From contig NW_027266319.1 in NCBI RefSeq assembly GCF_022045235.1, forward strand, positions 35,092,001 to 35,156,000: a DNA stretch of 64,000 bases, given 5' to 3'. Position 1 is the first letter of the stretch, and each line of letters opens with the position of its first letter. The notes below the pieces were generated by a model. The model did no database searches. It worked only from the letters and a program-made list of their open reading frames with translations, and was not told the DNA's origin. This DNA is from Haliotis cracherodii (Eukaryota). Positions 1,716-63,708 of this stretch are shown here, one piece after another. Made by a program: the position numbers and the translations under genes.

Positions 1716-1762
1716 GCGTCGTTGACATGTAATATAACATACGTTTCCCTATCATCTCTCAG

Positions 1763-1905
1763 CACGGCGTGGGGAGGATGTGGACAGCATCACCAACTGC
1801 TGCATCGCCGGCTGCTGCATCACCCACTGCAGGCACATCCATGTTGCTCACGGCCAGACACGTGATGTTCACCGCCCCAGGGCACCTTCAGAAGGCGACA
1901 CCTGA
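1763..1905 (+). CDS. Probable 3'-terminal coding exon of an upstream gene: (x)RRGEDVDSITNCCIAGCCITHCRHIHVAHGQTRDVHRPRAPSEGDT*
   Basis: Pyrimidine-rich acceptor ccctatcatctctcag at 1762; GC-rich island; 14 consecutive C-ending codons in this frame; TGA 1903-1905; AU-rich downstream region with AATAAA near 2548. Confidence 0.45.
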
Positions 1906-3448: not shown

Positions 3449-3490
3449 TATATAACGCAGGGGGAACCTCATGTCTTCACATCACACCAG
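3449..3490 (+). promoter_or_regulatory. Gene A TATA box (3449-3455) and very short non-coding exon 1 ending at donor CAG|GTACGT (intron starts 3491)
   Basis: gggTATATAAc about 25-30 nt before an Inr-like tcac; same layout as gene B at 12609-12665. Confidence 0.55.
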
Positions 3491-3551
3491 GTACGTGCAG
3501 TTCTACTCGTGTACTCCTTCATGCAACTCTGTTTCCGAGTGCGATTCTAGA

Positions 3552-4476: not shown

Positions 4477-4541
4477 CTTTAATATTTACAAATGTTGATA
4501 GTTATTACAGTTGTACTGTTTATGGTGTTCCAGGTACAACG

Positions 4542-6583
4542 ATGAAGTTTCTATGTGTTGGAGTGCTCGCTGCGGTTCTTGTTCTCACGAAGGGTAAGTC
4601 AGCCCATGATTCTCATTCCATATACCACCCGCGACGATCCGGGATAGAACAGGCTTCAGCAACCCACGCTTGCCGTAAATGGTGATTATGCTTGTCGTAA
4701 GAGGCGACTAACGGGATCGGGTGGTCAGGCTCACTGACTCGGTTGATACATGACATCGATCCCAATTGCGTGGACCTATGCTCATGACACACTCACTGGT
4801 TTGTCTGGTCCAGACTCGATTATTTACAGACCGCCCTCATATAGTGGGAATATTACTAAGTACCCCGTCAGTCGCCTCATAGGACAAGCATAGTCGCAAG
4901 CATGGATTGCTGAAGACCTATTCTACCCTGGATCTTCACGGGTCTCGCATTATGCGTTTATCGTGAAATGAGGTCGATATGTTCAGGAAACACAATTTAC
5001 CGCATCAGAAAAGTATGATTTATGATCTGCGACTCTTTTATATTTAGAAGTCGGTTTCCGGACAACGGGTCTTTACGTGTGTCATTTGCTTCCATATATG
5101 CATATTAGTACTCATTTACCAAACAATATGTTGATTTATTTTAGGCCAGAGTTCGCCAGGAGCTGGTACCAGTATGCCTACTGATCCAGGTCATGCTCCG
5201 AGTGGAGAGGCAACAGGTCCGCTGGGAGGTAGTGGGCCTGACCCGATGGCATCTGGTCCCCTGGCCAGCGCTGTTAAAGCAATGGGTGGACTGTCAGCGA
5301 CAAACAATGGAGGAATGGGAGGTCAAGCAGGTCCCGCAACATCCGGAATGGGGGGAAATGCTGCCACCAGCGATATGAGTGGAATTACGTCCGGCATGTC
5401 CAACCCAATGGCCGCCATGTATAACTCCATGCCCGGTGGTATGTCCAACTCCATGCTCGGTGGTATGTCCAACCCAATGGCTGCTATGTCCAACTCCATG
5501 TCCGGTGGTATGTCCAACCCAATGGCTGCTATGTCCAACTCAATGACCGGTGGTATGCCCAACCCGATGGCTGCTATGTCCAACCCAATGGCCGCTATGT
5601 CCAACTCTGTGAACGGTGGTATGTCTAACCCAATGGCCGCTATGTCCAACTCCATGAACGGTGGTATGTCCAACTCCATGACCGGTGGTATGTCAAACCC
5701 AATGGGCGCTATGCCCAACCCAATGGCTGCTATGTCTGGCTCCATGACCGGTGGTATGTCCAACCCAATGGCCGCTATGCCCAACCCAATGGCCGCTATG
5801 CCCAACCCAATGGCCGCTATGCCCAACCCAATGGGCGCTATGCCCAACCCAATGGGCGCTATGCCCAACCCAATGGCCGCTATGCCCAACCCAATGGCCT
5901 CTATGTCCAACCCAATGGCCGCTATGCCCAACCCAATGGCCGCTATGCCCAACCCAATGGCCGCTATGCCCAACCCAATGGCCGCTATGCCCAACCCAAT
6001 GGGTCCCATGATGGCAGGAGGTATGTCTGGTAACACTGGTGCCATGTCTGGACCCCTGGACGCCATCGCCGCCATGACAGGAGGACAGATTGCCGGCAAG
6101 CCCGGGTTCGGTAAAGGCCTCTCTGGTCATCCAGCAGGACCATCTATGAGTGCAGCCACCAGAAAGGGGAACAAGAGCCCGATGACAGCCCTGCTTCCGT
6201 ACCTGCTCCGTGGAGGCATCTCTCCCGAGACAAAGAAGATGATCATGATGATGTCCATGATGTCCAGTATGGGCGGCTCCAGCGGCTCCAGCGGCTCCAA
6301 GCAAAACTCAATGATGAGCCTGATGCCTCTGCTGATGGCTACGGGGGGCGGAGGAGAGGGCATGAGCCCCCTGCTGCTGATGGCCTTGACCCAAGGAGGA
6401 GGGTCATCATCATCCTTCATGATGCCGCTGATGATGGCGATGATGTCCGGTGGTGAGATGAACATGAGCACCATGCTCCCCTTCATGATGATGCAGATGC
6501 AAGGCCAAGGTCAAAACAAGGGTGGCCCATGGGGAGGTCACAGGTCAGCTGTTCCGATGATGGGAATGAACAAGGCTGTGTAG
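4542..6583 (+). CDS. Gene A: secreted Met/Gly/Pro/Asn/Ser-rich low-complexity protein, 496 aa; join(4542..4593,5145..6583)
   Basis: Exon 2 encodes signal-peptide-like MKFLCVGVLAAVLVLTKG with phase-1 donor G|GTAAGT; acceptor ttttag at 5144 puts exon 3 in frame with ORF 5174-6583; MPNPMAA heptad repeats; AATAAA at 6801; paralog gene B has the same structure. Confidence 0.85.
4627..4945. mobile_element. SINE-like family 3 copy (+, 4627-4865) followed by an inverted fragment (-, 4868-4945) in gene A intron 2
   Basis: gtcgtaagaggcgactaacgggatcgggtggtcagg core; the second part is the reverse complement of the 5' portion. Confidence 0.8.
5395..6003 (+). repeat. Coding tandem repeats of gene A: 21-bp (MPNPMAA) and ~42-bp (MSNPMAAMSNSMxGG) units
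   Basis: atgcccaacccaatggccgct repeated ~12 times at 5757-6003. Confidence 0.9.
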
Positions 6584-6800
6584 ACGGTTAACACGTTAAT
6601 GGATTACACATATGAAGATTGGACTTTCAGTTTATTTTCTTACTCTTCTCTATTGCTCAGCGTTTCACTGTGTGCCAATATTTGTTTATATACAAATATA
6701 CCAAATTTATCAATATTGCTGTGAGTAATTTGAGTTGTTAGAGATGAACATGCTACTGTGTAGTGTTATATATAAATGTTTGTATATTTGTTAATAAGAT

Positions 6801-6806
6801 AATAAA
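6801..6806 (+). promoter_or_regulatory. Polyadenylation signal AATAAA of gene A
   Basis: 218 nt after the stop codon in an AU-rich 3' UTR. Confidence 0.6.
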
Positions 6807-7261
6807 TATATATTACACCAAATCCTGAGTTTTCATGTCATTCTTTGAAGACAGTTACTGAATAATATAAACAAATAATAAAATACTAATATGTAAATAT
6901 CAATCATCAACGCCAGAGAATAAGCTCGATTATCTGCCTAAACATCTTCCATTGAGCGTTTAAGGCACAATAGTGGTGAAAATTATATGAATGGATCAGT
7001 GCTGACACTAATAGTTGACGAAGAGGATAAGCATGTCCTGCTCTACGGCCAGCACCCGCCACTCACACAATTTGCACAAAGAAGTCAGTGATTGTTACCT
7101 GACACCGCGCAGCAGTACTCCTGCCATATGACGGCGACTTGAGAACAATCGAATCTAGACCAGATAATCTGATGATAGTGGACCAGTCTAGGACCAGATT
7201 CAGTGATTGTGGAAAAAAACCCGCTCTGATGAAATTTTAGAGCAGTGTTCAATACCACATG

Positions 7262-8760
7262 TATCATATACACAGGTAGTATTCTATATCATATACACAG
7301 GTAGTGTTCGATTATCATATACACAGGTAGTATTCTATATGATATACACAGGTAGTATTCTATATCATATACACAGGTAGTGTTCGATTATCATATACAC
7401 ATGTAGTATTCTATATGATATACACATGTAGTGTTCTATATGATATACACAGGTAGTGTTCTATATCATATACACAGGTAGTGTTCTGTATCATACACGC
7501 AGGTAGTATTCTATATCATATACACAGGTAGTGTTCGATTATCATATACACAGGTAGTATTCTATATGATATACACAGGTAGTGTTCTATATGATATACA
7601 CAGGTAGTGTTCTATATCATATACACAGGTAGTGTTCTGTATCATATACACAGGTAGTATTCTATATGATATACACATGTAGTGTTCTATATCATATACA
7701 CAGGTAGTGTTCTGTATCATATACACAAGTAGTGTTCTGTATCATATGCGCAGGTAGTGTTCTGTATCATATACGCAGGTAGTATTCTATATCATATACA
7801 CAGGTAGTGTTCTATATCATACACGCAGGTAGTATTCTATATCATATACACAGGTAGTGTTCGATTATCATATACACAGGTAGTATTCTATATGATATAC
7901 ACATGTAGTGTTCTATATCATATACACAAGTAGTGTTCTATATCATATACACAGGTAGTGTTCGATTATCATATACACAGGTAGTGTTCTGTATCATATA
8001 CGCAGGTAGCGTTCTGTATCATATACACAGGTAGTGTTCGATTATCATATACACAGGTAGTGTTATGTATCATATACACAAGTAGAATTCTATATCATAT
8101 ACACATGTAGTGTTCTTTATCATATACACAGGTTAATGTTCTATATCATATACACAGGTAGTGTTCTGTATCATACACACAGGAAGTGTTCTGTATCACA
8201 CACACAGGTAGTGTTCTGTATCATATACACAGGTAGTGTTCTGTATCATAGACACAGGTAGTGTTCTGTATCACACACACAGGTAGTGTTCTGTATCATA
8301 TACACAGGTAGTGTTCTGTATCACATACATAGGTAGTATTCTATATCATATACACAGGTAGTGTTCGATTATCATATACACAGGTAGTATTCTATATTAT
8401 ATACACAGGTAGTATTCTGTATCGTATACACAGGAAGTGTTCTGTATCATATACACAGGTAGTGTTCTGTATCATATACGCAGGTAGTATTCTTTATCAT
8501 ATACACAGGTAGTGTTTTGTATCATATACACAGGTAGTGTTCTGTATCATATACACATGTAGTGTTCTGTATCATATACACAAGTAGAATTCTATATCAT
8601 ATACACAGGTAGTGTTCTTTATCATATACACAGGTAGTGTTCTGTATCATATACACAGGTAGTGTTCTGTATCATATACACAGGAAGTGTTCTGTATCAT
8701 ATACACATGTAGTGTTCTATATCATATACACAAGTAGTGTTCTGTATCATGTGCACAGGT
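7262..8760. repeat. 25-bp minisatellite (tatcatatacacaggtagtgttcta), ~60 copies
   Basis: Direct observation. Confidence 0.95.
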
Positions 8761-8991
8761 TTTACAGAGCTCTAGTCTATACATTGTAAAAATGTGTTTA
8801 GAATGTAAACACATACAAGACATGTTTAGATATCCTACACGGAATACACATTTGATGTGTTCTATCTGAACACTTTTAAGGTCTAAACACATGAAATGAA
8901 CCTAAACACCACCTAACCACTACATCACCACACTCATGAATAGAATTTAAACACGTTTGAATGTTTAGATTTAAGTAACAGCAGCAGCAAC

Positions 8992-9155
8992 NNNNNNNNN
9001 NNNNNNNNNNNNNNNNNNNNNNNNNNNNNNNNNNNNNNNNNNNNNNNNNNNNNNNNNNNNNNNNNNNNNNNNNNNNNNNNNNNNNNNNNNNNNNNNNNNN
9101 NNNNNNNNNNNNNNNNNNNNNNNNNNNNNNNNNNNNNNNNNNNNNNNNNNNNNNN
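8992..9155. other. Assembly gap (N run)
   Basis: 164 N bases. Confidence 1.
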
Positions 9156-9156
9156 A

Positions 9157-9607
9157 GAGAGTTAACTGACTATAAAAGTCCAGTTTCCACCCTTGCCGAA
9201 CTAGGCTGGTATTACGGAGTTACATTTTGACTGGACTAACGAGTCTATGCATAGTCCAATCAAAACTGCGCAATGAAATCGACATCCGGTTCGTAAACCG
9301 TCGTGCAGATTTCGGTCGATTGAGGGATTTACAAAGCAAGTGCACCGCCAACACGTTGTCAACAGATATTTTCAAAATCTTTTCATGTTTTTAATCAATG
9401 TGCTCGCGTGATTTGATTCCGTTCGGGATGTAAAACCCGTTTTATCACAATGTAGATATTGATTATCGATCAGATTGTCTTGACTTGGCGCCGCCATTTT
9501 GTTTGACATAATTCGTAATAGCCACTGGTGGCGCTACGATAGAGCCCAGGAATTCCAGCCTAGTTCGGCAAAGGTGGAAACTGGACTTTTATGGTCAGTT
9601 AACTCCC
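9157..9607. mobile_element. MITE-like element with ~50-bp terminal inverted repeats
   Basis: gagttaactgactataaaagtccagtttccacccttgccgaactaggctgg versus ccagcctagttcggcaaaggtggaaactggacttttatggtcagttaactc; left end abuts the gap. Confidence 0.75.
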
Positions 9608-9623
9608 TTTGCCTCGGGAAGAT

Positions 9624-9624
9624 A

Positions 9625-9669
<45 letters not shown>

Positions 9670-9690
9670 CAGTACCACCACCACTACTAC
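9624..9690. repeat. (TAG)n microsatellite
   Basis: About 15 TAG units followed by (CCA/CTA)n. Confidence 0.95.
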
Positions 9691-10629
9691 TCAATTACTA
9701 CTACTTCTTAGTTCAATTACGATTTATTGCATATTCTGAATCAGTTATACATATAACAATATGCCAGGCTGAAAGACAAAGAACGACAAAAAACCTTTCC
9801 ATAAAACACTATCCACTGTACGATTATGATTATATCATAACAATGTGTTTATGAATCACTATAACATAGTATTAATACCAGGCATTCGCTTAAAGGTGAG
9901 AATCTTTCTTTCAAATTCATACCAATTTAGCCAAACGTTGTTTTCGTTTTAAAAAATAATTTTGCAGACCTGTTTATTTAGAAACAATGGGGCCATACAT
10001 TTTCTGACGTCATATGGAAGTGGTAAAAATAATGATGTTTTATATATTTAGCTCTAGGCTTAATTTTTATATATCGTCGGGTCATGGGTTTTCGGATATC
10101 ATACGTTTTCGGACGGCCATGTTTATTGCGATTACACGCGCTAGAACAAGGGATGTGGCGTCACACAGACATTGTAGATACTCAGATGATGGCCTATTTT
10201 AAGATAAATTCGTCTTTTATAAGTGTGAGATGTTTTACAGTTGTTCTTGTGATTATGGAGAAAACTGCGAACGTTTTTAAGCGTCCGAAAACCTATACCA
10301 CGGGGATATATTGATTATTACCTAAATATAACATATATGTATACTTAACGTAGCGCATTAAGGGATGTCAGTGGTGCTATGTAACAACAATTGCAACAGA
10401 AAACTTCAATGATTAAAAAGAACGTAGTTTGGTCACTTGTAGAACTGACGCCGCTGATGACGTAGTCACGGCGTGACAGATAGGGTACAAGCATCAACAT
10501 GCCCTGACGGACGGGATATCGCCAGACGGCTGGTCAACACGCTTTGATGCCGTCCAGTTTGCTTATATTGTAACCTCATGACCTCTACGTACTGTACTAT
10601 TAAACCGCGAAGATGGCGTCAGACGTGGG

Positions 10630-10730
10630 TGCCGTTGTACAAAACAACCTCAGCCCTCAACTGTCGTAGGTCGATGTTAAGGTATGGGAGTTAGCTCACC
10701 TTAGCTCTAAGATAGCTTTGTACAACGGCA
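10630..10730. mobile_element. ~100-bp hairpin MITE family (other copies 15150-15246 and 29944-30050)
   Basis: tgccgttgtacaaa...tttgtacaacggca termini; shared internal cttagcNctaag motif. Confidence 0.7.
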
Positions 10731-10808
10731 TTCTGGACATCACGTCTTATTGCCAGGATCCTCGGTCTGCAACACATGTACTTCTGAGCAACACCTGCCC
10801 GCGACCTT

Positions 10809-11040
10809 AAGAGTGAGTGAATGAGTGAGTTGGGTTTAACGCCGCATTTAACAGTATTCCAGTTACATCACGGCGTGTCAGCTTAATGTGGGAGGAAACC
10901 CACGACCACGGGTATGGTGCTGACAAACCTACAAACATAATCGGGGCGAACAGGGATTCGAACCCACAATCATAGGTTTCTGGCGTGCCCAAGGGACGCA
11001 ACTCTGCACAGCGACGACTGGGCCACTCGTGCCCCCCCCC
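10809..11040 (-). mobile_element. SINE family 2 copy with internal deletions
   Basis: Matches 3757-4029. Confidence 0.85.
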
Positions 11041-11474
11041 CCCCCAAAAAAAAAAAAAGGAAGACGACGTCCCAGTAAATAATTTTGACGTCAAAGTTGT
11101 GGCCTTAGACCCAGCCCAATCACTCACTCACTTCACACTAGGTCCTTTTTAATAGGAAGAGATGATCATTATCATGTGGGAATATATCCTTTCAAAATTG
11201 TTTCAGTGATTGCGAATACAGTAAAACTAATTTCTCTATCCCAACCATGTGCCCAGTGTCGTCGTCCGGAGTAACAGTTCCGAGTTGCCTTGGGACCATG
11301 GTTTGTGTTTGATATAAATACATCCACAGCAGCGATCACTCTGAAACCAGTGTTACCGGCGGAAGGTTACTTCAACAGATGTTTATACGTTGTGAACTTG
11401 GGTGGGATACACGTTCTACATGTTCTACAAGTTATATATAGTAAAACAAAATGTACAAGTTGTATTAGTTGTTG

Positions 11475-11633
11475 TGGTCAGGCTCACTGACTTGGTTAAT
11501 GCATGTCATTGTATCCCAATTGCTTGGATCTATGCTCATGATGATCACTGTATTTTCTGGTCCAGACTCGATTATTTACAGACCGCCGTCATGTAGCCTG
11601 AGTATTGCTGAGTGCGGCGTTAAAAAAACAAAC
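11475..11633 (+). mobile_element. SINE-like family 3, 5'-truncated
   Basis: ggtcaggctcactgacttggtt...gagtgcggcgttaaa. Confidence 0.8.
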
Positions 11634-12608
11634 ACATCATACCGTGATAAATATGTTGTTTCTGTTTCTTTTCTTTTCTTTTTTTAAATAAAAAAGTACC
11701 TGTTACATAACACAGGCTTCTGTCCAGGGTAGCAGAAAGTCTGTGACATGAAAAGAACGCTTTGAAAACGTTTTATGGTTGAAATGTGGAGGTCATGTCC
11801 AAATTTGACGCGTCAGTGACAAAAATAATGCCTGATACATTTCCCTACATGCATTGACTTGTACAAATGTTCCCCTGTACTTTTTGTTTTAAACTGAACA
11901 ATTGACTTGCCTTTGCTTGTGTTTGTGACGGATGTCAACGGTAGGGCAGGATACACTCACCATTTCGCAAACACCTGGTATCATCACTGTTTTATAGTGG
12001 TTCAAAACACATGCTCATGATAGTCGGAATCGAACAAAAGACTCAGCTTCAGTTGCGATTTCTTTGCATAAGGAAAGGGTTTTGTAGCTTTTTTTAAAGC
12101 TCTCTATATCCTAGTGGAAGATAACCGCAATACACCTTAAGACTGGGCAGCATCCCACCACGCCCATTTTATTAATGTAGTCACAATAACCTGGAAGTAA
12201 CCCCAGTTGATTATTTGAGTTGTTACCTGCAGATTTTGTCCGAAAGACTGAATTCAGAATGATCAAGGTTTCACTATAATAAATTTCAAACGACACGAGT
12301 GACCCATATTTCAACATGAAAGAACTGACGCCCTGTCACAACTTGTGACATGCGACTTAACCATGTACGTGACCAATGATCAGAAGCCCCCACAAAGCCA
12401 GCTGCCAGGAAAGAGATGATGTTAACGAGTATGTTACCTTTGTCATCCATCACTGTGAAGGCAGTCGCTTCTACAACAGACTCGTTGTGCAACATCCGAC
12501 AGAAAACAAAGACTCCGACAGCAATACCTCTCGTAACGCCGCCGCTTGAAACACAAGGTTCATGTGGTCATCTGGTCAGTGATGGATGGCCTGGCCGTCA
12601 TACCAGGG

Positions 12609-12665
12609 TATATATACACAGGTGGTAGGAAACGTCGTCACTTCTCAGTCAGTCTTCCCACACAG
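12609..12665 (+). promoter_or_regulatory. Gene B TATA box (12609-12616) and short non-coding exon 1 ending at donor CAG|GTGAGT (intron starts 12666)
   Basis: gggTATATATA, Inr-like tcacttc ~30 nt downstream, consensus donor; mirrors gene A. Confidence 0.65.
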
Positions 12666-13816
12666 GTGAGTCGTCTTGCATTCCATGTTTTCTTGATATG
12701 TTTCTTTGATTAGTAACTGCATCTTGTTCAGTGAGAGAGAAATGTGCGAAACGATGTCTTGCTTAAATAATTTAGGAAGCTAGAATATGCTTCTGTGCTT
12801 GTTATTGCTAACATCTTCAGATGAAATATGAGCCTTGGAGCGGAGAGAAATGTTACTTATAGTATAGAAGTTTCAATCGATAAAATGCTAATAAGATCCT
12901 GTGCAGTTAAAACCCGGTAATCCGGACGGTTACCGGAGATAGAAATGTCCGGAAAGGCAAATGTCCGTATTGACAGATTCTGACTACGTAGACACGTCCT
13001 TTCGGGTCCATACAGACCACTGACCGTCAATAAGGCGGTTGTCCAGAATACTGAAGTCGAAGTGTAGGATTTCATTATAAACAGCAGATACTGTAACTAG
13101 CATATTGGCAGAATATATCTCACATATCATAATCAATTCTTATATAATTTGAGGTTGAATTGACATTCTTTATTTCGGAGTAGAGTTGTACAGTCCTTAA
13201 TCTAGGCTCGTTCATTTTAATTTATCCCCGCAGCAATGTTCCAGTAATATGACGGTACTCATTTTAGTGATGTCAAAATGTCATCTGTGGCTGGGTAATT
13301 TTGCGTAGAAAAAGGTAGATTGGTTCAATGAAGACTGGGGTAAGACATGAATTCGCAACCACATGACCCCTACTGTCTTTTGTAATTTTGTCCCGAAAAA
13401 AGTAAATGTATTTATTTTCAAAAATGATGTCTAAGATACCAATGAACAGTTGTGTATTATGCGATTTTCGATTAAGGGTTTAAGTCAAATTATATTTTTT
13501 TAAATAAAACCAAGTAGAAGTATCCTCTGAATGCTAAACGCCAGTACAGATCGTTTCTTGGATATAATATCGATAACTTAAGATGTTTTCATTTGAAAAT
13601 CAAGCATATGATAAAATCAACAGGGAGGTATAGTTTCTTTAGACCTCCAGTTTACACAAATAATCTGTTTGTTGTTAATGTTAATCTTAGAGTTCGCTGT
13701 AATCAGCTAAGTAAGGAAATAGTGCATGATTTAGTTTCTATCGCATTGCATATTACTCACACTGTATACACCGCAATTTCTAGACCAGGCTGGTGTTTTG
13801 GACTGATCCATTACCA

Positions 13817-13978
13817 GTGTGTAAGTGTGGTTTTACGCCGCTTTTAGCAATATTCCAGCAATATCACGGCGGGGGACACCAGAAATGGGCTTCACACATT
13901 GTACCCATGTCGGGAATCGAACCCGGGTCTTCGGCGTGATGAGCGAACGCTTTAACCACTAGGCTACCCGACCGCCCC
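13817..13978 (-). mobile_element. SINE family 1 copy
   Basis: Near-consensus; TSD at(c/t)cattacca. Confidence 0.9.
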
Positions 13979-14094
13979 TATTCATTACCAACAAAGGTAT
14001 GTTATTATATGAGTGCAGGCGAAATACCATATCACCATTTCTGTTGGCAGGGTGGCTGTAGGCGAACTGTACTGTAGGTGACAGTATGGGTATA

Positions 14095-14411
14095 GGGGCG
14101 GTGGGGCAGCCCTGTGCATACAGTGTTCGCTCGTCACGCCGAAGGCCCGGGTTCGATTCCCCACATGGATATAATGTGCGAAGACACGTTTTGGCTACCG
14201 CTAAACAAAGATCTGAGGACATCCCATTACAAGTCACGTCAGGGGGCGGTCGGGTAGCCTAGTGGTTAAAGCGTTTGCTCGTCACGCCGTAGACCCGGGT
14301 TCGATTCCCGACATGGGTACAATGTGTGAAGCCCATTTCTGGTGTTCCCCGCCATGATATTGCTGGAATATTGCTAAAAGCGGCGTAAAACCATACTCAC
14401 TCACTCACTCA
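14095..14411 (+). mobile_element. Partial (14095-14190) plus full-length (14242-14411) SINE family 1 copies
   Basis: A/B boxes and (cact)n tail. Confidence 0.85.
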
Positions 14412-15149
14412 CCTCAGAACGTACACTGACCGATGAAATGGCTAAAGTGAAAAGTTGACTTTAGCCAATCAGAAAGCAACTTTCTCGAGCTATACGGCAC
14501 TAGTTTCAAACTGACGACTACGTTTTGAAAAAATATGTCAAATTTTCGATTCAAAATATGAAAACCGAACAAGAGAACATTCTGGCACCTCTATGAGATG
14601 GCCTAGATTGTATGGCAGTATATCCCACGGGCAATGCAAAGTCACTTTCCTGATGTGGTAAGCGAAACTCTGATTGGTAGGATGAAAGGTCGTTCTGACA
14701 TGACCCGTAATGGGATGTTCTCAAATCTTGGTTTAGCGGTAGCGAGAGTAAGATCTGATTATAATTAGATTGCATAAAACCATACTCACCACTACCTAAC
14801 TATTTGCGCATGAGCAAATCTTTGATCCAACCTGGTTTGCTAAATAGATGAAGGTGAAGGTCGATCAGACATATTAAAAAACAGGGTCATCTCGTGCATG
14901 GATATGTTTTCTCTTGAAGTTCAAAGAACTGGCACTTTTTTCTGTCAGCAACATTTAGGTACTTGATCATATCAAATGTACAAAACTTTCGAGCGTAAGG
15001 TAGAAAAATGGCTGGTTGTCATGAGAATTTTCAAAACAATATTTTGAAAATGTTCCGTATGATTAAAATTAGACATCATGTGTTTCCAAAACAGTTCCAT
15101 CGGTGGCATTGCTGCTTCCGAAAATGGTTTGTCAATATAGTTAGACATA

Positions 15150-15246
15150 CCTGTGCCCCGTTCCTCAAAGCAATCTTAGCGCTACGATGATCTTAAGACT
15201 TACGATCACCTTAGAGCTAAGATCGCTTTGAGGAACGGGGCCCTGG
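15150..15246. mobile_element. Hairpin MITE related to 10630-10730
   Basis: gccccgttcctcaaagc...gctttgaggaacggggc palindrome. Confidence 0.75.
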
Positions 15247-15635
15247 TTACTTTAAGTCGTATTGTCAACTGCTCTGCATCTTTTTGTATTGTATTGAAAA
15301 TAGTTCTTTATTTCAATTTGCCTAATATGATAACATAGGTCCAAATTCTCAGGAAGAAAAGATTTAAGGTTTATTTAGTAACTTGAAGTGACTCTCCAGG
15401 CACAAACTCTGTTGTCAAGAGATACCTGTCGGACTTTCTACTACACGTTAGTCCCTAGTGACAGTGTTAAGGTTGATCCCCGGTATGACGTTATTCGGAT
15501 GACGAGGTCAGTCCTCGCTTTTATTCGTGTGAAGACTAACTTTAGAATAGATACACTGGCGGGTTTATTTGTCCCGTAGCTGACACCAATCCTTTTTGCC
15601 CAATCCATTCGGCGTTACACCGAGCCAAGGCCTTC

Positions 15636-15785
15636 TGGGGTGTGCCGACAACGTGTTTGGGGATGTGTCGACATCATGTGTTTGGGGATGTGTTGACGCC
15701 AGGTGTTTGGGGATGTGCCGACCCCAGGTGTTTGGGGATGTGTTGACGCCAGGTGTTTGGGGATGTGTTGACATCAAGTGTTTGC
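15636..15785. repeat. 25-bp minisatellite (gtgtttggggatgtgttgacgccag), ~6 copies
   Basis: Direct observation. Confidence 0.85.
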
Positions 15786-15919
15786 GGTTGCACCTAGCCC
15801 ATGTGTTACGCGATGCTCAGCCCAATCAAGCATTAGGTGATATCATGCACCAGATTATCCGATGTCACACTACATGTACACCTATTTAAGATGTCATGTT
15901 TGTTTCAGCAGGTGAGAAG

Positions 15920-18581
15920 ATGAAGTTGGCGTTGTTTGGACTTGTCTGTGTTCTGGCGTTGGCTGCTGGTGAGTAGTGTCCCGGTCATGTTAATGTCACA
16001 CTACATCATCATGACACAGGTGTAGTCTCGTTACTACTACTTACAGTGTGTCCCGCACGGATGACACAATGATGCTTCTTCAAGTTCAAAATGTGCCATT
16101 GTCACCATAAGCTTTACTCCAAGATGATGACGCTAAAGCCGCCCGGATTTCTAAACATGGATCAGTATTGACAATTGTGATCACCTCCCTGTCATATTCT
16201 AATGCACAATATTCTTCCCTGCAGGTCAACAGCCTCCCCCTTCACCATACCCAGAAGCACCGTCTGGGGCGCCCTACGATGTCCAAGCTGCACCGTCTGG
16301 GGCGCTCTTCGATCTCCATGCTGCACAGTCTGGAGCGCCCTACGATCCCCAAGCAGCACAGTCTGGAGCGCCCTACGATCCCCAAGCTGCACAGCCTGGA
16401 GCGCCTTACGATCCCCAAGCTGCACAGTCTGGAGCGCCCTACGATCCCCAAGCTGCACAGTCTGGAGCGCCCTACGATGTCCAAGCTGCACAGTCTGGAG
16501 CGCCCTACAATCCCCAAGCCGCACAGTCTGGAGCGCCCTACGATGTCCAAGCTGCACAGTCTGGAGCGCCCTACAATCCCCAAGCCGCACAGTCTGGAGC
16601 GCCCTACAATCCCCAAGCTGCACAGTCTGGAGCGCCTTACGATCCCCAAGCCGCACAGTCTGGAGCGCCCTACAATCCCCAAGCTGCACAGTCTGGAGCG
16701 CCCTACAATCCCCAAGCTGCACAGTCTGGAGCGCCTTACGATCCCCAAGCCGCACAGTTTGGAGCGCCCTACAATCCCCAAGCCGCACTATCTGGAGCAC
16801 CCTATGACCCCCAAGCAGCACAGTCTGGAGCCCCCTACGATCCCCAAGCCGGACAGTCTGGAGCGCCCTACAATCCCCAAGCCGCACTATCTGGAGCACC
16901 CTATGACCCCCAAGCAGCACAGTCTGGAGCCCCCTACGATCCCCAAGCCGCACAGTCTGGAGCGCCCTACAATCCCCAGGCTCCTCTGTCTGGAGGTGGT
17001 CCAGTGGATGTCATCAACAACATGGGCGCCCCTCCGCCTGGAATGCCCAGCTCCTATCCGGATCAATATTCTACGTCAGGTTCTAGTACTAACACTGTTA
17101 ATCATTACCCTGCAGGTCCAAACAACCCCCTCCCCCTTTCATATTCTACAAACTCAAATGGCCTTCTTCCCGTTACATACCCAGCTGACCCAAAAGCCCC
17201 CTTTCCCGTCCAAAGCGCTGCAGGTCCAAATGCCCCCCTTCCAAGTCAATACTTTTCAGGACAAAATGATCTAATGACTCCTTACTACTCCAGCCAAAAA
17301 ACAGGCTCTTCTTCTGGAACCTACCCCATTCAACATAACGGGTCCCCGCCAAACCCGTATTCTGGAACACCAAGCAGTCCTCTGCCTAATTCCTTCAACC
17401 AGTTAAATAATTTTGCTTCTAACCCCCAAGCAGCCCAACAGAGCGGCCCATACTCAGGTCCTGGACTTAACACTTACTCTTCAACACAGAACCAACCCAC
17501 ATCTAATCAAAGTCCACAGAACCACCTTATGCTGAGCTCACAGATTGGTAAAACCACTAACCCATTCTCACATCACCAGAACAGTCTTGGAACCAACCCT
17601 ACGTCTGGCACACAGAATGGACCTATAATGAACACTATGTATAATGCAATGTCAGGCATACAGAACAGTTCAGCAACCAATCCCATGACAGGAAAGAACA
17701 GTTCCCCAGTAAACCCTTACTCTTCGCAACAGAATATGTTCATGTCAGGTGCACAGAACAGTTCAGCAACTAGCCCCTTCTCAAGTCAGCAGCGTAGTCA
17801 CCCTTACCCTGGAATTGCTAACATGAGAGCTACTGGGAGTGCCTATCCTGGTCTCAATCATGGGACTTCAATGCAGAACAGTAATCCAATGTTCAGTGGA
17901 ATGAACATGGCCTCCTCCGGCCCCAACTCTGGTGCTATGCCCTCCCCTTACAGTGCCCGTCCAGCAGGGATGCAACCAATCACAGGCATGCCATCTGGAC
18001 CCCTCTCTGCTATGCTTTCAGGCTTGGGAGGAAGCCCAATGTCCGGGATGGGTTCAGGGTATTCTGGAATGGGTTCACATATGGGAGGCATGGGATCACC
18101 GATGGGAGGAATGGGTTCAAGAATGATGTCAGGGCCTGGCTCAAGAATGTATCCCAGATCAGGAGTAAGTTCAGCCAGCCAACAGAAGTCCAGCAGCCAA
18201 CAGAACCAGTTTGCTTCCTTTCTTCCATTCTTACTTCGTGGTGCCACCCCAGAGACAAGGAAGATGATGATGATGATGTCTATGATGCAAGGAGGGGGTG
18301 GCAACAACAATATGATGAACATGATGCCGCTGCTGTTAATGAACGGAGGAGGGGGAGGAGAGGGCATGAACCCCTTGATGATGATGGCCATGTCCCAAGG
18401 AGGAGGAGGAGCATCCCAAATGATGCCACTCATGATGATGGCGATGTCTGGTGGAGAGATGAACATGAACTCCATGCTCCCTTACATGATGGCCAGCCAG
18501 ATGAATTCCGGGGGTCAGGCACAAGGGGGATCATGGGGTGGTAATCAGGGAATGGCCTCCATGCTACCGTTCCTCTTGTAG
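15920..18581 (+). CDS. Gene B: secreted low-complexity protein, 801 aa; join(15920..15968,16225..18581); AAQSGAPY(D/N)PQ repeats, then P/S/N/Q-rich region, then Met/Gly-rich C-terminus; paralog of gene A
   Basis: Exon 2 encodes MKLALFGLVCVLALAAG with phase-1 donor G|GTGAGT; acceptor ttcttccctgcag at 16224; exon 3 is open and in frame with ORF 17004-18581; C-terminal ~120 aa align with gene A. Confidence 0.85.
16255..16985 (+). repeat. Coding 33-bp tandem repeat, ~22 copies (AAQSGAPYDPQ/AAQSGAPYNPQ)
   Basis: gctgcacagtctggagcgccctacgatccccaa units in the frame fixed by splicing. Confidence 0.9.
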
Positions 18582-18654
18582 CCTCCCTTAAATCTGTCAC
18601 CAGGGGCACTTACAGAGACGTCCTGTCCCCATCAACCAGCAATGTGTATAACAC

Positions 18655-18800
18655 CCAGTGTCATATCACATCCCCTGTGTCTTGATATCACATTCCTGTG
18701 TCTTGATATCACATCCCCTGTGTCTTGATATCACATTCCTGTGTCTTGATACCACATTCCCTGTGTCTTGATATCACATTCCCTGTCTTGATATCACACT
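18655..18800. repeat. 21-23 bp tandem repeat (tgtgtcttgatatcacattccc) in gene B 3' UTR
   Basis: About 6 copies. Confidence 0.85.
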
Positions 18801-19402
18801 GTTTTATGTCATATGTGCTAAGTGCCATGTATACCTTCTTGTAAATACACTGTTGTATTTCCGGTGAACAATTTGATGTCTTTGTTGAACGCAACTAAAT
18901 GATAAATCTTCAAACTCATATTAGTGAACAAGGCACTCTCGTGTCATAGTATATACCACTACACGTTGTACCATGTGGCACACTTGGATGATAAGGCGTA
19001 CCCTTGCCAAAATATACCATGTAAGGAAATATTGATAAAAATAATGTGTCAATATCATTTGTTTTGTTTCTATATCAACATCCTTAAAAGCAAATTATCT
19101 CTGAAGCTGATCACAGTACTGTTGCTGATATACCACTGACCCAAGCAAGATGTCAGTGAGTGAATGTTAGTTTACTGGGGTGTCAAAATATATGCATAGA
19201 AACGTTTGTGGAAAGTTGATATTTTTCACGGGAAGTTTGCCTTTGCAGTTTGCGCACAGATCATGTGGTCAAAATACACGAAGACAAGTACTGTTATCAT
19301 TGTCTAACACCATACTTCATTAAATGATATCATTTTATTGGATGTGATGTCAATAGACAGGAATAGTTTATTGATATAAACGAAAACATTTCCATAACCA
19401 TA

Positions 19403-20257: not shown

Positions 20258-20680
20258 ATCAACACACAACCCATTCTGTTCTCAGATCCATTCATTCTGT
20301 ATTCAACACACAACCCATTCTGTTCTCAGATCCATTCATTCTGTATTCAACACACAACCCATTCTGTTCTCAGATCCATTCATTCTGTATTCAACACACA
20401 ACCCATTCTGTTCTCAGATCCATTCATTCTGTATTCAACACACAACCCTTTCTGTTCTCAGATCCATTCGTTCTGTATTCAACACACAACCCTTTCTGTT
20501 CTCAGATCCATTCGTTCTGTATTCAACACACAACCCTTTCTGTTCTCAGATCCATTCATTCTGTATTCAACACACAACCCTTTCTGTTCTCAGATCCATT
20601 CATTCTGTATTCAACACACAACCCTTTCTGTTCTCAGATCCATTCATTCTGTATTCAACACACAACCCTTTCTGTTCTCC
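20258..20680. repeat. 44-bp minisatellite, ~10 copies
   Basis: tcaacacacaacccattctgttctcagatccattcattctgtat. Confidence 0.95.

Positions 20681-24772: not shown

Positions 24773-63708
<38,936 letters not shown>

What the first reader, a model, noticed from the sequence alone, without database searches (positions are those of the whole stretch)
4542..18581. Tandem paralog pair of secreted low-complexity proteins: swappable repeat region on a conserved Met/Gly 'PLMMM-GGG' C-terminal domain
Seen: both genes have TATA, tiny exon 1, exon 2 with 8 nt of UTR plus a signal peptide ending in a phase-1 Gly, and a large exon 3 starting with Gln. The C-termini align: A LLPYLLRGGISPETKKMIMMMSMM...MPLLMATGGGGEGMSPLLLMALTQGGG...MMPLMMAMMSGGEMNMSTMLPFMM...GGPWGG; B FLPFLLRGATPETRKMMMMMSMM...MPLLLMNGGGGGEGMNPLMMMAMSQGGGG...MMPLMMMAMSGGEMNMNSMLPYMM...GGSWGG. 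The N-terminal regions are unrelated (MPNPMAA heptads versus AAQSGAPYDPQ 11-mers). The mature chains have no Cys and few charges. Established: Met/Gly-rich low-complexity secreted proteins occur in mollusc shell matrix, ligament (abductin) and other structural secretions. Inference: a possibly uncharacterised structural or self-assembling protein family in which short hydrophobic Met segments drive assembly. The ORF track misses both signal peptides and the true frame of gene B.
Basis: partly seen in the sequence, partly recalled or inferred. Interest (0 to 1): 0.7.

Follow-up and report, generated by a model that had tools for sequence, protein, structure and literature searches.

The report
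Abalone methionine-helix secreted protein family
Two neighbouring genes, likely from an abalone, encode repetitive proteins predicted to be secreted, whose methionine-rich tail recurs in about 20 other genes of the same genome and likely in a major limpet shell protein; the tail likely glues the proteins into an insoluble organic scaffold, but the tissue and the assembly are untested.

Summary
Both genes are intact (496 and 801 aa) and their C-terminal modules align far beyond shuffles. Contigs from runs guessed to be RNA cover both large exons; the splice joints were not seen. The pair is not alone: the genome holds at least 21 such genes plus one diverged copy in three clusters. All 21 have a signal-peptide exon, a phase-1 intron, a cysteine-free arm of 48-660 aa and the module. 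The module is predicted as five or six short Met helices without a confident fold. Its motif order matches peptides of the limpet glycine- and methionine-rich protein (GMP, 9.14% of the identified shell proteome), so it is likely GMP-like rather than new. 'Swappable arms' is not supported: arm and module share one exon and both arms use N/D-P-x-A-A. No member was found in the greenlip abalone shell proteome tables, so the tissue is open. Unrelated phage and environmental proteins use a similar motif, so convergence remains possible.

The parts
3449..3490 (+). Gene A TATA box and short non-coding exon 1 (about 3479-3490, donor GT at 3491)
   Evidence: Sequence; similar context to gene B promoter. 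Start site inferred from TATA spacing.
4534..4593 (+). Gene A exon 2: 8 nt UTR and predicted signal peptide (ATG 4542), phase-1 donor
5145..6583 (+). Gene A exon 3 coding part; mature chain predicted to start with Gln, 478 aa
   Evidence: covered by contigs of run X8 at 5186-5456, 6208-6343, 6378-6753
5423..6002 (+). Gene A arm repeats (21-24 nt units; 15 NPMAA)
6179..6580 (+). Gene A Met-helix module and tail (134 aa)
6584..6806 (+). Gene A 3' UTR up to an AATAAA at 6801
   Evidence: X8 contig reaches 6753
12609..12665 (+). Gene B TATA box and short non-coding exon 1 (about 12640-12665, donor GT at 12666)
   Evidence: Start site inferred.
15912..15968 (+). Gene B exon 2: 8 nt UTR and predicted signal peptide (ATG 15920), phase-1 donor
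16225..18581 (+). Gene B exon 3 coding part; mature chain predicted to start with Gln, 784 aa
   Evidence: contigs of 4 of 4 runs cover about 16930-18900
16257..16995 (+). Gene B arm repeats (33 nt unit, 22.4 copies, Tyr-bearing 11-mer)
18207..18578 (+). Gene B Met-helix module and tail (124 aa); six short helices predicted in the first 100 aa

Best explanation
These are two likely expressed genes for proteins predicted to be secreted, members of a 21-22-gene family that likely shares its C-terminal methionine module with the limpet shell protein GMP, and they likely work as scaffold proteins of an insoluble extracellular organic layer. Steps: (1) shown: intact three-exon genes and the shared module across three genomic clusters; (2) partly shown: transcription of the large exons; (3) predicted: signal peptide cleavage after Gly, leaving N-terminal Gln; (4) predicted: the module is a string of five or six short Pro-started, Met/Leu-rich helices on Gly/Asn/Ser linkers with no fixed fold; (5) inferred: these helices act as hydrophobic stickers between chains, so the proteins condense and set without disulfides, while the disordered arm, grown by repeat expansion in each gene, sets spacing, swelling and extra chemistry (42 Tyr in B, further Met motifs in A); (6) inferred: the source is a mantle-type secretory epithelium and the product an organic layer missed by standard abalone shell proteomics (detergent-insoluble scaffold, periostracum or larval shell).
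For: Family: 2 + 3 + 16 genes and one diverged copy at E 1.2e-8, the next of the other ORFs scoring E 1.3. A hydrophobic ATG exon ending G|gt was found for 21 of 21 (20, 1). Invariant columns across 12 aligned members: L6 P7 M20 M26 P41 G48 M54 P74. A profile built without A and B scores B at 70.1 bits, above 500 of 500 residue shuffles and 500 of 500 block shuffles. No stop among 44 listed read differences; gene A module 4 synonymous to 1 non-synonymous, arm 2 to 6. The 3 listed coding indel rows in B keep the frame. GMP peptides show the same motif order, including MLP-x6-G-x-ENMLP (9 of 16 C34 members, 0 of 1682 other ORFs, 0 of 25 database proteins) and the GG[EN]-x-MLP ending shared with A, B and the 3 C13 genes. 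GMP is 9.14% of the identified limpet shell proteome. Met-rich regions are common to pearl-oyster detergent-insoluble shell proteins, and one recombinant Met/Glu-rich region aggregated with calcium (PMC7591529). A snail mantle-enriched transcript is annotated 'glycine and methionine-rich-like' (PMC5607911; sequence not seen).
Against: No family motif occurs in the greenlip abalone nacre and prism proteome supplements. No tissue label was available for any run. No splice joint was listed, and the one contig crossing B's intron 2 is unspliced (15941-16305). Gene A alone is a weak match to the wider family: 45.0 bits, reversed sequence 50.6, 4 of 500 block shuffles as high, and a genome search with A's module found only A and B. 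Unrelated repeat proteins, one a Bacillus phage protein, also beat every shuffle with the same profile (51-135 bits), so the motif grammar arises by convergence. The GMP comparison is by eye and by patterns written after seeing the peptides, not a scored alignment; A and B lack the strict pattern (0 of 2). B's module shows only 1 synonymous and 1 non-synonymous difference. The modules carry only 3 acidic residues each, unlike the calcium-triggered oyster fragment.
Confidence: 0.5

Rival explanations
1. Same secreted, sticker-type proteins, but made for a non-shell material such as foot or gill mucus, an epidermal coat or an egg coat.
For: Absent from the abalone shell proteome tables; few acidic residues; Ser/Thr/Pro-rich arm in B could be glycosylated (inference); B was covered in 4 of 4 runs laid.
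Against: The closest named look-alike is a major shell protein. Gene A's arm repeat resembles the GMGNPM repeats of the abalone prism protein idb_20008. The limpet mucus paper's main text has no mention of methionine.
Confidence: 0.25
2. The likeness to GMP, and perhaps of this pair to the C13 and C34 clusters, is convergent. A and B are a lineage-specific low-complexity pair whose Met helices are only a compositional habit.
For: Unrelated proteins pass the same profile test; A's reversed module scores as high as the real one; B finds C13 only at E 0.085; the branch to the pair is long (1.04).
Against: C13 finds B at E 5.7e-4; 21 of 21 share the gene layout; spacing patterns shared with GMP are absent from the convergent proteins.
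Confidence: 0.15
3. The module is a binding or protective device rather than a glue: Met clusters scavenge oxidants or bind soft metals, or fold only on chitin or mineral.
For: 22-24% Met in the last 130 aa; Met oxidation and copper binding are general chemistry (recalled); no confident fold alone.
Against: Conserved Leu-Pro helix starts and fixed spacing are more than a sacrificial Met pool needs; no His/Cys ligands in the aligned core. Nothing was tested.
Confidence: 0.1

Closest known systems
Lottia gigantea glycine- and methionine-rich protein (GMP_LOTGI, B3A0R1) and its neighbour glycine-rich protein (GRP_LOTGI, B3A0R2); PMC4094399
   Same: Extracellular, 20% Gly and 18% Met; peptides give the same series of LP/NP-started Met segments with Gly linkers, with matching spacing in two places. 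GRP has an ALSGGE segment like the C13 genes; both limpet models lie on one scaffold.
   Different: GMP is 151-186 aa with little arm; A and B add 344 and 660 aa arms. GMP is abundant in limpet shell, whereas this family was not found in abalone shell tables. Homology was not scored on the full sequence.
Met-rich insoluble shell proteins of Pinctada fucata (NU-5, LMP and others); PMC7591529
   Same: Met-rich region in a low-complexity matrix protein, proposed scaffold role; one ligament protein has a C-terminal Met-rich region.
   Different: No sequence link shown (0 motif hits in 4 supplement files; figures may be images). NU-5 has acidic regions and aggregates with calcium; these modules have 3 acidic residues each.
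Haliotis repetitive low-complexity shell proteins (idb_20008, idb_54497/CLC_12027, Has-GRBP, ML5A7/ML6A10/ML8B1)
   Same: Signal peptide, short Gly/Met/Pro repeats; idb_20008 has 13 GMGNPM-type heptads like gene A's arm.
   Different: idb_20008 and idb_54497 lack the module in the sequences seen. GRBP is described with GMGA and QQQV repeats. The ML sequences were not seen.
Abductin
   Same: Gly/Met-rich secreted structural protein of a mollusc.
   Different: Recalled as a Gly-Phe-Met elastomer of the bivalve hinge without Pro-started helices; not compared by any tool here.

Membership tests
GMP-like gastropod matrix proteins (no formal family) | Secreted, Gly/Met-rich, cysteine-poor chain | tested here: met
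   Hydrophobic N-terminal exon, module 22-24% Met and 18% Gly, 0 Cys in mature chains. SignalP not run.
GMP-like gastropod matrix proteins (no formal family) | Same ordered series of Met segments as GMP | tested here: inconclusive
   Order and two spacings match by eye and by post hoc patterns; strict pattern in 9 of 16 C34 genes, 0 of 2 window genes; end pattern in 2 of 2 window genes.
GMP-like gastropod matrix proteins (no formal family) | Significant full-sequence or profile match to B3A0R1 | not testable with these tools
Shell matrix proteins in the strict sense | Peptides recovered from cleaned shell | tested here: not met
   No family motif in PMC6003135 supplements (12, 26 and 27 of 27 files; different motifs per call). 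One species, bleached or sand-blasted shell, so not final.
Shell matrix proteins in the strict sense | Mantle or shell-field expression | not testable with these tools
   Runs carry no tissue label.
Molluscan repetitive low-complexity (RLCD) secreted proteins | Signal peptide, biased composition, tandem repeats, no known domain | tested here: met
Met-rich detergent-insoluble scaffold proteins (Pinctada type) | Found in detergent-insoluble residue; aggregates in vitro | not testable with these tools
   Needs bench work.
Known Pfam or PDB domain | Profile hit | tested here: not met
   0 Pfam families for 4 of 4 and 8 of 8 sequences; one PDB hit at E 0.052 to an unrelated hydrolase.

The most novel reading that the evidence does not exclude
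The module is an old gastropod assembly domain, shared by limpet GMP and 22 abalone genes, that lets differently armed proteins co-condense through short Met helices into a cysteine-free insoluble scaffold. It would be a true homology among low-complexity matrix proteins usually taken to be convergent, and a minimal 75-100 aa handle on why Met-rich regions dominate the insoluble shell fraction.
Probability: 0.25. Interest if true: 0.7.

Novelty: new variant of a known kind. Interest (0 to 1): 0.42.

Why it matters
The role of Met-rich regions in mollusc matrices is described as hardly investigated (PMC7591529), and low-complexity shell proteins of different lineages are usually read as convergent (PMC6003135). 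A short alignable module with natural variants (75 aa in C34, about 100 aa here) and arms from 48 to 660 aa gives a ready series for testing sticker-driven assembly. As it stands it is one more expanded family of secreted low-complexity genes in a mollusc, with tissue and function unknown.

Tried and rejected
One search used the wrong reading frame and is ignored; one search repeats it correctly. Pfam: nothing for A, B or 8 modules. Word-based protein searches: none at E 0.001 among 7991 and 7990 candidates for A and B; the profile search gave one 93% identical relative of a C34 gene and two weak repeat proteins. The full HMMER search gave 15 hits, none below 1e-10: ankyrin and other chance hits plus Met-repeat proteins, rejected as homologues. 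Protein Atlas gave no answer. Complex prediction for two copies of B's module: no verdict, alignment not used; it is no evidence either way. Fold search was not run because both models are low-confidence (pTM 0.18 and 0.23). No RNA holder is on record as RNA. Gene A exon 3 had no cover in X1, X2 and X6, which is not evidence of silence. Joint tables were filled by interspersed repeats (483 and 301 rows hidden), so splicing could not be read. A DNA alignment of the two repeat units showed no convincing likeness. Motif searches found nothing in supplements of PMC4944945 (7 files) or PMC7591529 (4 files). Literature searches listed no paper describing this family; B3A0R1 occurs in 1 paper. The library lacks most subscription journals, and supplements of PMC2989941, PMC9365450, PMC11401363 and PMC7333891 were not seen and could hold members. 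Rejected: chance ORFs, exon shuffling of arms, identity with GRBP, idb_54497 or idb_20008.
Full report
Observation. Spliced in a script, gene A (4542-4593 + 5145-6583) gives 496 aa and gene B (15920-15968 + 16225-18581) gives 801 aa, both without internal stops. Each has a TATA box in a similar context, a short untranslated exon, a second exon with 8 nt UTR and a hydrophobic leader ending in a phase-1 Gly, and a large third exon starting with Gln. A is 19.8% Met and 16.3% Gly; B is rich in Pro, Ser, Ala, Gly and Gln. Mature chains have no Cys. The C-terminal modules share 61 of 122 residues and score 339 against at most 116 in 2000 shuffles. The organism is taken to be an abalone from a recalled interspersed repeat and from earlier AI notes on this genome; no call of mine names it.

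Expression. Eighteen runs hold part of gene B's 3' region; none is on record as RNA, 14 are guessed to be. I laid 4 of the 24 listed runs. X8 contigs cover gene A exon 3 at 5186-5456, 6208-6343 and 6378-6753, with zero cover in the adjoining intron bin 5038-5154. All 4 runs cover B from about 16930 to 18900. The 3 listed coding indel rows in B (33, 21, 21 nt) keep the frame, and none of 44 listed substitutions makes a stop. In A the module has 4 synonymous and 1 non-synonymous change, the arm 2 and 6; in B the counts are 1 and 1 against 9 and 20 (the tables hid 16 and 163 rows, and changes were scored one at a time). Against a clean result: no splice joint was among the rows shown, and one X8 contig runs unspliced through B's intron 2 (15941-16305). 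Its start is where a 31-mer graph would branch at the donor, since exon 3 also begins GT; that is my inference only. Transcription is therefore likely and splicing is unproven.

The family. A genome search with B's module found A and, at E 0.085, a locus on contig C13 that proved to be a similar protein. Searching with it gave 20 matches. A profile scan of 424 kb of fetched sequence and window (1703 ORFs) gave 2 genes here, 3 on C13 and 16 within about 130 kb on C34, and a diverged 22nd on C34 at E 1.2e-8. Counts are lower bounds. No further copy lies in the 70 kb fetched upstream of the window or in the rest of the window. A hydrophobic ATG exon ending G|gt was found for 21 of 21; a Gln-starting acceptor passed my filter in 19 of 21 and is visible in the sequence of the other two. 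None was found for the 22nd. In 11 members measured, arms run from 48 to 660 aa with different biases and no Cys. A tree of modules supports the A+B pair (100/99), the C13 trio (98/92) and one C34 group (100/99); deeper forks are weak.

How firm is the link to the wider family? A profile built without A and B scores B at 70.1 bits, above all 500 residue shuffles and all 500 four-residue block shuffles. A scores 45.0, below its own reversal (50.6) and matched by 4 of 500 block shuffles. A is tied in through B (65% over the aligned core). The same profile also lifts 5 of 5 database repeat proteins above their shuffles, one of them a Bacillus phage protein. Pro-started Met helices on Gly linkers are thus a recurrent grammar, and the shuffle test shows motif, not descent. 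Shared gene layout and spacing carry the homology argument.

Arms. The arms are tandem DNA repeats within the same exon as the module. A has 15 NPMAA, B 8 NPQAA and 9 DPQAA, and two C13 genes carry 6 NP-M/V units each. A's unit resembles the module's own NP-started segment. The linkers are weakly alike (65 of 2000 shuffles); the DNA units are not convincingly alike. Expansion in place explains this; nothing shows swapping.

Structure. AlphaFold2 gives five helices for a C34 module (pLDDT 53.9, pTM 0.18) and six for B (pLDDT 55.6, pTM 0.23), separated by flexible linkers. With 8 and 12 sequences these are weak models. They fit short helices without a fixed fold but do not exclude folding on a partner.

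Known relatives. Pfam and PDB give nothing. In the limpet shell proteome, GMP (B3A0R1) is the third most abundant entry at 9.14% and GRP is 5.91% (PMC4094399, passages). Their peptides in the supplement, ordered by flanking residues and Met positions, run through the same series as the abalone alignment: an LP-M-M-GG-D start, a Met helix, MLP-x6-G-x-ENMLP, then NP-Met-GG and a final MLP. The strict middle pattern is in 9 of 16 C34 genes, 0 of 5 C13 and window genes, 0 of 1682 other ORFs and 0 of 25 database proteins; the end patterns are in A, B and the 3 C13 genes and in none of the controls. I wrote these patterns after seeing the peptides, so this is a strong lead and not a statistic. I put homology with GMP at about 0.65. 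A land-snail mantle-enriched transcript carries a 'glycine and methionine-rich-like' label (PMC5607911, section 13; no sequence seen). In pearl oyster, most proteins of the detergent-insoluble fraction have Met-rich regions, NU-5 knockdown disturbed nacre, and a Met/Glu-rich fragment aggregated with calcium (PMC7591529, parts 1-3 of 6).

The main result against a shell role. Motifs from A, B, C13 and C34 were not found as family sequences in the supplements of the greenlip abalone nacre and prism proteome (PMC6003135; I also read passages, section 7 part 1, section 14 and parts 1-2 of 4 of the repeat figure). A and B have several tryptic peptides of usable length, so the blank counts. It is softened by a different species or database, cleaned shells and heavy Met oxidation. 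Passages only were seen for PMC3374290, PMC4944945, PMC2989941, PMC9365450, PMC11401363, PMC7333891 and PMC13544226.

Mechanism. Most likely the proteins are secreted and the module's short Met/Leu helices stick chains together into an insoluble, disulfide-free organic layer, with arms acting as disordered spacers (0.5). Rivals are the same chemistry in mucus or another coat (0.25), convergence with no GMP link (0.15), and a binding or antioxidant role (0.1). Gene structure and family are shown; transcription is partly shown; secretion, helices, assembly and tissue are predicted or inferred.

Verdict. A real finding and larger than reported, but of a known kind: secreted low-complexity mollusc proteins, likely GMP-like, with long repeat arms that GMP lacks. 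The searches listed under Tried and rejected found no paper on the family. Interest 0.42; 0.7 if the module proves to be a conserved assembly domain.

Noticed in passing
G000:C34:30715900-30847019 (L011-L025, L027, L028-L042): Array of 16 short family genes on both strands plus a diverged copy at 30724912-30725529; two near-identical subgroups (6 and 9 genes) suggest recent amplification.
   Followed up: yes
G000:C13:17144948-17179065 (L008-L010): Three family genes; two lie on opposite strands and differ by one residue, a recent inverted duplication or an assembly duplicate.
   Followed up: partly
window 39050-63708, minus strand: Exons of a 6-phosphofructo-2-kinase/fructose-2,6-bisphosphatase gene (PF01591, PF00300) pointing towards gene B; no link to the pair seen.
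   Followed up: partly
window 1760-1905, minus strand: GC-rich exon-like segment with a splice-acceptor-like start and a short Asp-Ala repeat frame; if it is a terminal exon of a minus-strand gene, A and B would be nested in an intron. No Pfam hit for the neighbouring ORF 1499-1789; the segment itself was not scanned.
   Followed up: no
P0004-P0006, P0008-P0010, P0012-P0015, P0024, P0025: Many unnamed environmental proteins and a Bacillus phage protein (gp209) are built from repeated LP/NP/DP-started Met helices with Gly linkers, with no Pfam family named; possibly a widespread, undescribed assembly motif.
   Followed up: partly
window 15941-16305: One contig of run X8 reads unspliced through gene B intron 2: retained intron, pre-mRNA or DNA.
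   Followed up: no
window 7262-8760, 20259-20679, 34365-35391, 39645-40374, 48024-51123, 52865-54971: Minisatellite arrays that create long spurious ORFs.
   Followed up: no
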